From the NCBI GenBank assembly GCA_009914755.4, contig CP068257.2, positions 15,392,001-15,456,000 of the forward strand: a stretch of DNA of 64,000 nucleotides, given 5' to 3'. Positions 63,113 to 64,000 of this stretch are shown here, one piece after another. This DNA is from the human T2T-CHM13v2.0 reference genome, Homo sapiens. The notes beneath the pieces are model-generated. The model made no database searches. It was not told the origin of the DNA and was given only the letters and a program-made list of their open reading frames with translations. A program made the translations under genes and the position numbers. Numbering within the stretch: the stretch's first letter is position 1; the number at the start of each line of letters is the position of its first letter.

Positions 63113-63457
63113 GGCCGGGCGCGGTGGCTCACGCCTGTAATCCCAGCACTTTGGGAGGCTGAGGCGGGTGGATCATGAGGTCAGGAGATCGAGACCATCC
63201 TGGCTAACAAGATGAAACCCCGTCTCTACTAAAAATACAAAAAATTAGCCGGGCGCGGTGGCGGGCGCCTGTAGTCCCAGCTACTCGGGAGGCTGAGGCA
63301 GGAGAATGGCATGAACCCGGGAAGCGGAGCTTGCAGTGAGCCGAGATTGCGCCACTGCAGTCCGCAGTCCGGCCTGGGCGACAGAGCGAGACTCTGTCTC
63401 AAAAAAAAAAAAAAAAAATAAAAAATAAAAAATAATAATAATAATAATAATAATTCT
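63113..63457 (+). mobile_element. Young Alu with AluYa5-type diagnostic sequence, full length, with an A-rich/(AAT)n tail and a perfect 13-bp TSD (aataattctagct).
   Basis: ggccgggcgcggtggctcacgcctgtaatcccagcactttgggaggctgaggcgggtggatcatgaggtcaggagatcgagaccatcctggctaacaagatgaaaccccgtctctac...gccgggcgcggtggcgggcgcctgtagtcccagctactcgggaggctgaggcaggagaatggcatgaacccgggaagcggagcttgcagtgagccgagattgcgccactgcagtccgcagtccggcctgggcgacagagcgagactctgtctc. Almost all CpGs are intact, and ccactgcagtccgcagtccggcctgggcg is the Ya5 hallmark. Flanks ...aaaaaataattctagct[Alu+tail]aataattctagctaattccc. Confidence 0.93.
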
Positions 63458-64000
63458 AGCTAATTCCCTTTTAGACTTGCAGCTGTAATTGTTCAGCTTT
63501 CCTCTTCTTTTAGATTTTCTACCACTCAATTTCCTTCACTCTCAGAAAATCCATTCCCCTCAATATATCGGAGACATAAAAGTTGCTCATCCTGAAATTT
63601 TTTAACCCCTCCTTTCAAAAATCTCTACTTATGCTACAAATACTCTTAGCTCTTCAAACACATCAGACTTCTTTGCCTGTAGACCCAAGTCCAAAACTTC
63701 TAAACATGGCATTCAGTGTTCTCTAAACTTTGAACTGGTGTCTACCTTTCCATCCTATCTCCTTTTAGGCCTTTTTTCACATATTTCAAGCAAACCAGTC
63801 TCTTCCCCTCTTCCTAAATTAAAAAAAAAAATACCTGTTTTATTTTGCCACCATTTTTTAGTTTATATTACTTCTCTCAATAAAACATCCTTTTCCTTCA
63901 CTACTCCTGCTGTCTCCACCTACCTTTCCCATTCCCTAATTCAACACAAGTAAAGGCTATATAATGGTGCCCACTCTGATGACCTTCCATCCTGTCATCT

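What the first reader, a model, noticed from the sequence alone, without database searches (positions are those of the whole stretch)
63113..63470. Very young AluYa5-type insertion with intact CpGs and a perfect 13-bp TSD: candidate human-specific and possibly polymorphic
The element carries the Ya5-type hallmark ccactgcagtccgcagtccggcctgggcg. Nearly all its CpG dinucleotides are retained (ggccgggcgcggtgg, ccgggcgcggtggcgggcgcc), whereas the other Alus in the window are heavily CpG-decayed. It is flanked by an exact aataattctagct duplication. AluYa5 is the most active human Alu subfamily and many of its copies are insertion polymorphisms. Its tail has diversified into (AAT)n at about 63420-63457, which is itself a mutable microsatellite.
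Basis: partly seen in the sequence, partly recalled or inferred. Interest (0 to 1): 0.5.

Follow-up and report, generated by a model that had tools for sequence, protein, structure and literature searches.

The report
Ordinary young AluYb8 insertion, not Ya5

Summary
A full-length 288-bp Alu lies on the + strand at 63113-63400. It has an A-rich tail (63401-63448) and an exact 13-bp direct repeat, aataattctagct, at 63100-63112 and 63449-63461. It keeps 21 of 24 consensus CpGs; the other eight Alu-like places in the window keep 0-8.

The subfamily call is wrong. The quoted "Ya5 hallmark" is the GCAGTCC tandem duplication that defines AluYb8/9, which Ya5 lacks. The element has 4 mismatches to Yb8, against 17 mismatches plus a 7-bp gap to Ya5, and none of the five Ya5 diagnostic bases. 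The published Yb8/9-specific primer matches it exactly.

"Very young" is overstated. It has four private substitutions (1.4%; three are CpG transitions), an interrupted tail, and a rough age of 4-5 Myr (95% CI about 1-13). That is typical of the mostly fixed Yb8 bulk.

I could not test human specificity or polymorphism. No primate assemblies were available, and every indirect route returned nothing. From the published rate (499 of 2,433 reference Yb copies polymorphic) and the signs of age, I estimate about 5-10% for polymorphism.

It works as a standard L1-driven target-primed reverse transcription insertion. A 17-bp reading of the duplication gives the canonical TTTT/AA nick site. This is an already known kind of element and of low interest.

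The parts
63096..63112 (+). 5' copy of the target-site duplication. The exact 13-bp copy aataattctagct is 63100-63112. The likely original 17-bp duplication AAAAAATAATTCTAGCT starts at 63096, directly after TT.
   Evidence: The 17-bp reading puts the bottom-strand nick at 5'-TTTT/AA-3'.
63113..63400 (+). Full-length AluYb8 body, 288 bp. Left monomer about 63113-63230, A5TACA6 linker 63231-63244, right monomer about 63247-63400.
   Evidence: 4 mismatches to Yb8; both monomers hit Metazoa_SRP below threshold, E about 1e-14; full-length Yb8 is 288 bp.
63187..63195 (+). Pol III B-box-like GATCGAGAC in the left monomer, identical to the consensus. The A-box region TGGCTCACGCC at 63125-63135 is also unchanged.
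   Evidence: No difference from the consensus in these stretches.
63357..63370 (+). Tandem 7-bp duplication GCAGTCC GCAGTCC, the defining Yb8/9 feature.
   Evidence: TRF, 100% match; literature; published AluBP2 primer site 63360-63379, 0 mismatches.
63160..63160 (+). Private substitution: consensus position 48, C>T, a CpG transition.
   Evidence: It is also the single mismatch to published primer AluSPv3.
63212..63212 (+). Private substitution: consensus position 100, G>A, the only non-CpG change.
63311..63311 (+). Private substitution: consensus position 199, G>A, a CpG transition.
   Evidence: It is also the single mismatch to published primer AluSPIn1.
63395..63395 (+). Private substitution: consensus position 283, C>T, a CpG transition.
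63401..63448 (+). A-rich tail: A18 T A6 T A6 T followed by AAT units. It is interrupted, not homopolymeric.
63431..63454 (+). (AAT)8 microsatellite spanning the junction of the tail and the 3' duplication.
   Evidence: TRF, period 3, 8.0 copies, 100% match.
63449..63461 (+). 3' copy of the exact 13-bp target-site duplication. Under the 17-bp reading the 3' copy is 63427-63461 and has gained 6 AAT units.
63469..63472 (+). First downstream TTTT, the potential Pol III terminator, about 20 nt past the tail.
   Evidence: Criterion taken.

Best explanation
A full-length AluYb8 SINE (7SL-derived, dimeric, non-autonomous) was copied into this site by L1-driven target-primed reverse transcription. L1 endonuclease nicked the bottom strand, most likely at 5'-TTTT/AA-3' opposite tt|aaaaaa at 63094-63101. 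The Alu RNA's poly(A) annealed to the T-run and was reverse-transcribed. A staggered second nick 13-17 bp away produced the target-site duplication. Since then the copy has gained three CpG transitions and one other substitution, and its A-tail has broken up and grown an (AAT)8 microsatellite. It belongs to Yb8 proper (not Ya5, Yb9, Yb8a1, Yb8b1, Yb10 or Yb11). It most likely inserted on the human lineage a few million years ago and is probably fixed. It lacks the published hallmarks of a source element: its pure A run is 18, less than 20; the tail is interrupted; and the TTTT lies about 20 nt past the tail. What is shown: the anatomy, the subfamily and the relative youth. What is inferred: the mechanism (from established knowledge of Alu and L1), human specificity, fixation and inactivity.
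For: Subfamily. Independent support: the GCAGTCC x2 tandem duplication; literature stating that the 7-bp insertion is diagnostic of Yb8/9 and absent from Ya5; an exact, unique match to the published Yb8/9-specific primer; single mismatches to two other Yb8/9-consensus oligos, exactly at the private changes; and published positions 64, 144 and 237 and the 288-bp length agreeing with my alignment.

Sub-subfamilies are excluded. Positions 174, 259, 260 and 200+T are all in the Yb8 state (against the definitions).

Mechanism. The 13-bp flanking repeat is exact and unique in the window. The 17-bp reading gives the canonical TTTT/AA hexamer (the canonical site and the 7-22 bp TSD range are). Both monomers resemble 7SL.

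Age. The element keeps 21 of 24 CpGs, against 0-8 in the other Alus. Divergence is 1.39%, giving 3.7-5.1 Myr with a 95% CI of about 1-13 Myr (rate). Most Yb insertions date to 3-4 Myr ago.
Against: The species of the window was never established, and no orthologous or allelic site could be retrieved. Human specificity and fixation therefore rest on published subfamily statistics, not on this locus. The age estimate rests on 4 substitutions. Some of them may have been inherited from the source copy, which would make the insertion younger. The full consensus sequences were recalled from memory; only part of them is corroborated by published text and primers. The exact 13-bp duplication implies a non-canonical TATT/TT nick, so the 17-bp reading requires a later 6-unit AAT expansion.
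Confidence: 0.9

Rival explanations
1. One reading: an AluYa5-type insertion.
For: It is an AluY-lineage element with high CpG retention. Ya5 and Yb8 are both young, human-expanded subfamilies.
Against: There are 17 mismatches plus a 7-bp gap against Ya5, and all five Ya5 diagnostic positions (89, 96, 145, 174, 237) are in the non-Ya5 state (position 237 confirmed). The element carries the 7-bp insertion that the literature says Ya5 lacks.
Confidence: 0.01
2. A much more recent Yb8 insertion that still segregates in humans as a presence/absence polymorphism. Some or all of the four 'private' changes would then have been inherited from a diverged source copy.
For: About 20% of full-length reference Yb elements are polymorphic (499 of 2,433). 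Of the validated polymorphic Yb8, 75 of 76 are no more than 2% diverged, so 1.39% is within range. The duplication is perfect, as in 93% of polymorphic Alus. Three of the four changes are at hypermutable CpGs.
Against: Polymorphic Yb8/9 average 0.43% divergence to 0.8%, against 1.39% here. Only 7% of polymorphic Alus have an interrupted A-tail, whereas this tail has three T interruptions plus an 8-unit AAT array. None of the four changes matches a described Yb sub-subfamily. The point estimate of age, 4-5 Myr, is well beyond the usual persistence of a neutral human polymorphism (inference).
Confidence: 0.07
3. The insertion is not human-specific. Either the window is from a non-human ape, or this is one of the rare old 'stealth-phase' Yb copies shared among apes.
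For: The Yb lineage arose before the human-chimpanzee split. The upper bound of the age interval, about 9-13 Myr, exceeds the split. The species of the window was not determined.
Against: [quoted passage not shown] 21 of 24 CpGs are intact. From memory of Han et al. 2005 (not retrievable), non-human apes carry only a handful of Yb8 copies.
Confidence: 0.05
4. An older AluY at this site was overwritten by gene conversion from a Yb8 copy, so the insertion event is older than the sequence looks.
For: Gene conversion among young Alus is documented (from my own knowledge; Roy et al. 2000 is cited in the reference list seen).
Against: All Yb8 diagnostic changes are present along the whole 288 bp, with no mosaic tract. 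The flanking duplication is perfect. CpG retention is uniform.
Confidence: 0.02

Closest known systems
AluYb8 (Yb lineage of AluY; human Sb2 or 'HS-2' in older nomenclature, the older names being from my own knowledge)
   Same: 288-bp full length; the GCAGTCC tandem duplication; all other Yb8 diagnostic changes; an exact match to the published Yb8/9-specific primer; TSD and A-tail typical of L1-mediated TPRT.
   Different: Four private substitutions (48 C>T, 100 G>A, 199 G>A, 283 C>T) and a decayed tail carrying (AAT)8. Nothing is beyond normal post-insertion decay.
AluYa5
   Same: Also a young, CpG-rich, human-expanded AluY derivative with the same dimeric architecture and the same mobilisation mechanism.
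   Different: Ya5 lacks the 7-bp duplication. This element has 0 of 5 Ya5 diagnostic bases.
AluYb9, Yb8a1, Yb8b1, Yb10 and Yb11 (younger Yb derivatives)
   Same: They share the Yb8 backbone and the 7-bp duplication.
   Different: This element lacks 174 C>G (Yb9), 259 G>A (Yb8a1), 260 G>A (Yb8b1) and the +T after position 200 (Yb11).
Alu-tail microsatellites
   Same: The A-rich tail has diversified into a perfect (AAT)8 array, a well-known origin of primate microsatellites (from my own knowledge; Arcot et al. 1995). Other Alus in the window show the same behaviour.
   Different: The array runs into the 3' target-site duplication. It may have been seeded by the AATAAT already present in the target.

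Membership tests
AluYb8 | Tandem duplication of seven nucleotides (GCAGTCC) near position 246-252 of AluY. | tested here: met
   TRF finds 63357-63371, period 7, 100% match. Definition. The published primer across it matches with 0 mismatches.
AluYb8 | The remaining Yb8 diagnostic substitutions relative to AluY, including 64 C>T and 144 T>C. | tested here: met
   All AluY-versus-element differences except the 4 private ones disappear when aligned to Yb8 (consensus recalled from memory). Positions 64 and 144 are confirmed as Yb8 diagnostics. The Yb8/9-consensus oligos AluSPv3 and AluSPIn1 each match with one mismatch, at a private change.
AluYb8 | Full-length size of 288 bp and the dimeric 7SL-derived architecture. 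| tested here: met
   63113-63400 is 288 bp. Published exact matches span 288 bp. Both monomers hit Metazoa_SRP at E about 1e-14, below the gathering score.
AluYa5 | Five diagnostic substitutions relative to AluY (positions 89, 96, 145, 174, 237). | tested here: not met
   All five are in the non-Ya5 state (consensus recalled from memory). states that Ya5 has five diagnostic mutations and gives the 237 G>C diagnostic.
AluYa5 | Absence of the Yb 7-bp insertion. | tested here: not met
   The insertion is present. Ya5 lacks it.
AluYb9, Yb10 and Yb11 | 174 C>G. Yb10 and Yb11 also need 259 G>A, and Yb11 needs +T after position 200. | tested here: not met
   There is no difference from Yb8 at 174, 259 or 200-201. 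Definitions.
Yb8a1, Yb8b1 and proposed Yb8c3 | 259 G>A; 260 G>A; C>T at 207, 213 and 258. | tested here: not met
   None of these is among the four differences. Definitions.
L1-mediated TPRT insertion | Flanking target-site duplication of 7-22 bp, a 3' A-rich tail, and a nick site resembling 5'-TTTT/AA-3'. | tested here: met
   An exact 13-bp TSD, or 17 bp with a canonical TTTT/AA site. Tail at 63401-63448. Criteria.
Human-specific Alu insertion | Empty orthologous site in non-human apes. | not testable with these tools
   No primate assemblies were available. Flank scans of the metagenome and prokaryote collections found nothing. ORF look-ups found nothing.
Polymorphic Alu insertion (dbRIP or 1000 Genomes type) | Both filled and empty alleles in human populations. 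| not testable with these tools
   The genomic coordinates are unknown. Neither junction nor empty-site string is printed in any held paper. The indirect indicators lean towards fixed.
Candidate Alu source element (criteria in Konkel et al. 2015) | Full length, intact A-tail longer than 20 bp, and TTTT within about 15 bp of the tail. | tested here: not met
   The element is full length, but the pure A run is 18 and the tail is interrupted. The first TTTT, at 63469, is about 20 nt after the tail ends at 63448. Criteria.

The most novel reading that the evidence does not exclude
The copy is still a presence/absence polymorphism in humans, with a length-variable (AAT)n tail on the filled allele. 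That would make it a compound population marker. Its four changes would then mark an undescribed, diverged Yb8 source lineage.
Probability: 0.06. Interest if true: 0.15.

Novelty: already known. Interest (0 to 1): 0.08.

Why it matters
It matters little beyond correct annotation. AluYb8 is one of the best-studied human retrotransposon subfamilies, with about 2,400 full-length Yb copies in the reference genome. One more typical copy adds nothing new. The practical value is the correction: the GCAGTCC duplication marks Yb8/9, not Ya5. There is also a caution that CpG retention compared with 30-60-Myr-old neighbours does not by itself make an element very young or polymorphic. If the copy proved polymorphic it would be a routine population marker.

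Tried and rejected
1. Rfam at gathering threshold over the whole window found nothing. At E-value threshold it found only the expected sub-threshold 7SL and Alu-derived miRNA models.

2. I scanned JGI metagenome contigs and GTDB genome contigs for host contamination carrying the filled or empty site, using exact 32-mers from the 5' flank and from the 3' flank.

3. I tried exact look-ups of window ORFs in the assembly collection: a flank-only 71-aa ORF, a junction-spanning 82-aa ORF, and two L1 ORF2 fragments 3.7-7 kb upstream. None is on record.

4. As a pre-test, I searched the 71-aa flank ORF against 1.84 billion representative proteins. The only hit was one spurious 35%-identity match. I therefore did not spend the roughly 13-CPU-hour homologous-protein search.

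5. A full-text search for the two junction strings, the empty-site string and a 3'-flank string found 0 papers. A search for the Yb8 hallmark string found only a case report that prints raw genomic sequence, which I did not pursue.

6. Carter et al. 2004, Han et al. 2005 and Hedges et al. 2004 are not held. Their copy numbers for non-human apes are therefore cited only from memory.

7. I considered and rejected four alternatives: Ya5; Yb9, Yb10 and Yb11; Yb8a1, Yb8b1 and Yb8c3; and a mosaic or gene-converted element.

8. The flanks are unique within the window, so there is no evidence that the Alu sits inside another repeat copy present elsewhere in the window.

Full report
**What is there.** Reading 62800-64000 shows a complete Alu on the + strand. 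The body runs from 63113 to 63400 (288 bp) and has the usual A5TACA6 linker at 63231-63244. After it comes an A-rich tail at 63401-63448, reading A18 T A6 T A6 T and then AAT units. The element is bracketed by an exact direct repeat, aataattctagct, at 63100-63112 and 63449-63461. That 13-mer occurs nowhere else in the 64 kb, and such a flanking match is expected by chance about 6e-6 times. TRF finds a perfect (AAT)8 at 63431-63454 and a perfect two-copy GCAGTCC tandem at 63357-63371. At relaxed threshold both monomers (63114-63228 and 63248-63402) match the metazoan SRP/7SL model with E about 1e-14, below the gathering score, as expected for a 7SL-derived dimer. Nothing in the window reaches any Rfam gathering score.

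**The CpG claim.** A blastn survey found nine Alu-like places in the window. This element has 21 CpGs (observed/expected 0.79). The other eight have 0-8 (observed/expected 0-0.38). Counted in register, it keeps 21 of 24 Yb8 consensus CpG sites. The six other longer copies keep 1-7 of 10-25 sites against their best-fitting consensus and are 8-16% diverged from it, which is AluJ, AluS or old AluY.

It shows 12 mismatches plus a 7-bp gap to AluY, and 17 mismatches plus a 7-bp gap to AluYa5.
- All five Ya5 diagnostic positions (89, 96, 145, 174, 237) are in the non-Ya5 state.
- Because those consensuses were recalled, I looked for independent support. Witherspoon et al. 2013 state that AluYb8/9 "contain a diagnostic 7-bp insertion" and that AluYa5 elements "lack the diagnostic insertion". 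Feusier et al. 2017 say the same. Ahmed et al. [quoted passage not shown]
- Konkel et al. 2015 confirm positions 64 and 144 as Yb8 diagnostics, 237 G>C as a Ya5 diagnostic, and 288 bp as the full Yb8 length.
- The Alu-specific part of the published Yb8/9-specific primer AluBP2 matches exactly once in the window, at 63360-63379, with 0 mismatches.
- The Yb8/9-consensus oligos AluSPIn1 and AluSPv3 each match with a single mismatch, and those mismatches fall exactly on two of the private substitutions.
- The element lacks the extra changes that define Yb9 (174 C>G), Yb8a1 (259 G>A), Yb8b1 (260 G>A), Yb10 and Yb11 (+T after 200), and the proposed Yb8c3. It is Yb8 proper.

**Age.** The four differences from Yb8 are 48 C>T (63160), 100 G>A (63212), 199 G>A (63311) and 283 C>T (63395). 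Three of them are CpG transitions. I used the 0.15%/Myr rate of Ahmed et al. and a 6-10-fold higher CpG rate. The non-CpG estimate is 2.8 Myr, and the combined estimate is 3.7-5.1 Myr with a 95% Poisson interval of roughly 1-13 Myr. This matches the published view that most Yb insertions date to 3-4 Myr ago. It is older than typical polymorphic copies, which average 0.43% divergence or 0.8%, against 1.39% here. The tail points the same way. Among Sanger-sequenced polymorphic Alus only 7% have an interrupted A-tail, whereas this tail has three T interruptions and an 8-unit trinucleotide array. "Very young" is true relative to the neighbouring Alus but overstated within Yb8.

**Mechanism (inferred from established Alu and L1 biology, with the criteria quoted).** The anatomy is that of target-primed reverse transcription by the L1 machinery.
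- The reconstructed empty site is ...gcaaaccaccttaaaaaataattctagct|aattcccttttagac....
- Taken literally, the 13-bp duplication implies a bottom-strand nick at 5'-TATT/TT-3'.
- The duplication may instead be AAAAAATAATTCTAGCT (17 bp, 63096-63112). In that case the nick is the canonical 5'-TTTT/AA-3'. The 3' copy then reads A6 T (AAT)7 TCTAGCT (63427-63461), meaning the AAT in the target expanded from 1 to 7 units after insertion.
- Both lengths fall within the published 7-22 bp range. I favour the 17-bp reading but cannot prove it without the empty site.
- The A-box and B-box regions are unchanged from the consensus. However, the pure A run is only 18, the tail is interrupted, and the first TTTT (63469) is about 20 nt beyond the tail. 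By the criteria the copy lacks the hallmarks of a source element and is probably a dead-end copy.

**Human specificity and polymorphism.** I could not test these here.
- No primate assemblies are offered.
- Exact scans of the metagenome and prokaryotic genome collections, with a 32-mer from each flank, found nothing.
- Exact look-ups of four window ORFs in the assembly collection found nothing.
- The flank ORF has no near-identical relative among 1.84 billion representative proteins, so I did not run the costly homology search.
- No held paper prints any of the four locus-specific strings I searched: the 5' junction, the empty site, and one string from each flank.

What remains is prior knowledge. 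AluYb8/9 are human-lineage expansions, and 499 of 2,433 full-length reference Yb elements are polymorphic. Discounting for the signs of age, I put polymorphism at about 5-10% and human-lineage origin at about 90-95%. Both figures are inferences.

**Surroundings.** The flanks are unique within the window. About 3.5 kb upstream lies a decayed, near-full-length L1 on the + strand, with Pfam hits to the ORF1 RBD and dsRBD, the endonuclease and the reverse transcriptase in separate broken ORFs. Another L1 ORF2 fragment lies at the start of the window. The window is AT-rich (37% GC) and CpG-poor (observed/expected 0.18).

**Verdict.** This is a routine member of a thoroughly characterised family: already known, and of low interest.

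Noticed in passing
window 53700-59700 (+): A near-full-length but decayed L1. The ORF1 RBD and dsRBD (54921-55343), the endonuclease (55714-56547) and the reverse transcriptase (57232-58005) are recognisable by Pfam but split across broken ORFs. It is therefore an inactive, older L1 copy about 3.5 kb upstream of the Alu.
   Followed up: partly
window 1-1709: A second L1 ORF2-derived fragment at the window start. The ORF translations (1-537 and 859-1335, + strand) resemble the endonuclease C-terminus and reverse transcriptase of the other L1.
   Followed up: no
window 17519-17827 and 36271-36685: Two older Alus (17784-18073 on the - strand; 36150-36420 on the + strand) also have tails that have turned into long simple repeats. 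The ORF translations read [10 protein letters not shown]... and GEGEGE/PSPSPS... . This is the same tail-to-microsatellite process as the (AAT)8 here, at a later stage.
   Followed up: no
window 11945-12816: A cluster of overlapping 100-140-aa ORFs on both strands whose translations suggest a relatively GC-rich patch. The one ORF tested (11945-12367) has no Pfam match. The nature of the patch (old repeat, CpG-island remnant or exon) was not determined.
   Followed up: partly
window 63246-63297 and 63314-63380: There are sub-threshold Rfam matches to the Alu-derived miRNA precursor families mir-1268 (69 bits against a gathering score of 83) and mir-3135 (39 bits against 80) inside the Alu. This reflects the Alu origin of those families and is not evidence of a miRNA gene here.
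   Followed up: partly
window 32141-32419 and 45999-46382: Dinucleotide-type simple repeats next to short Alu fragments (32330-32390 and 45470-45538). The ORF translations read YIYIYI... and HTHTHAHA... .
   Followed up: no
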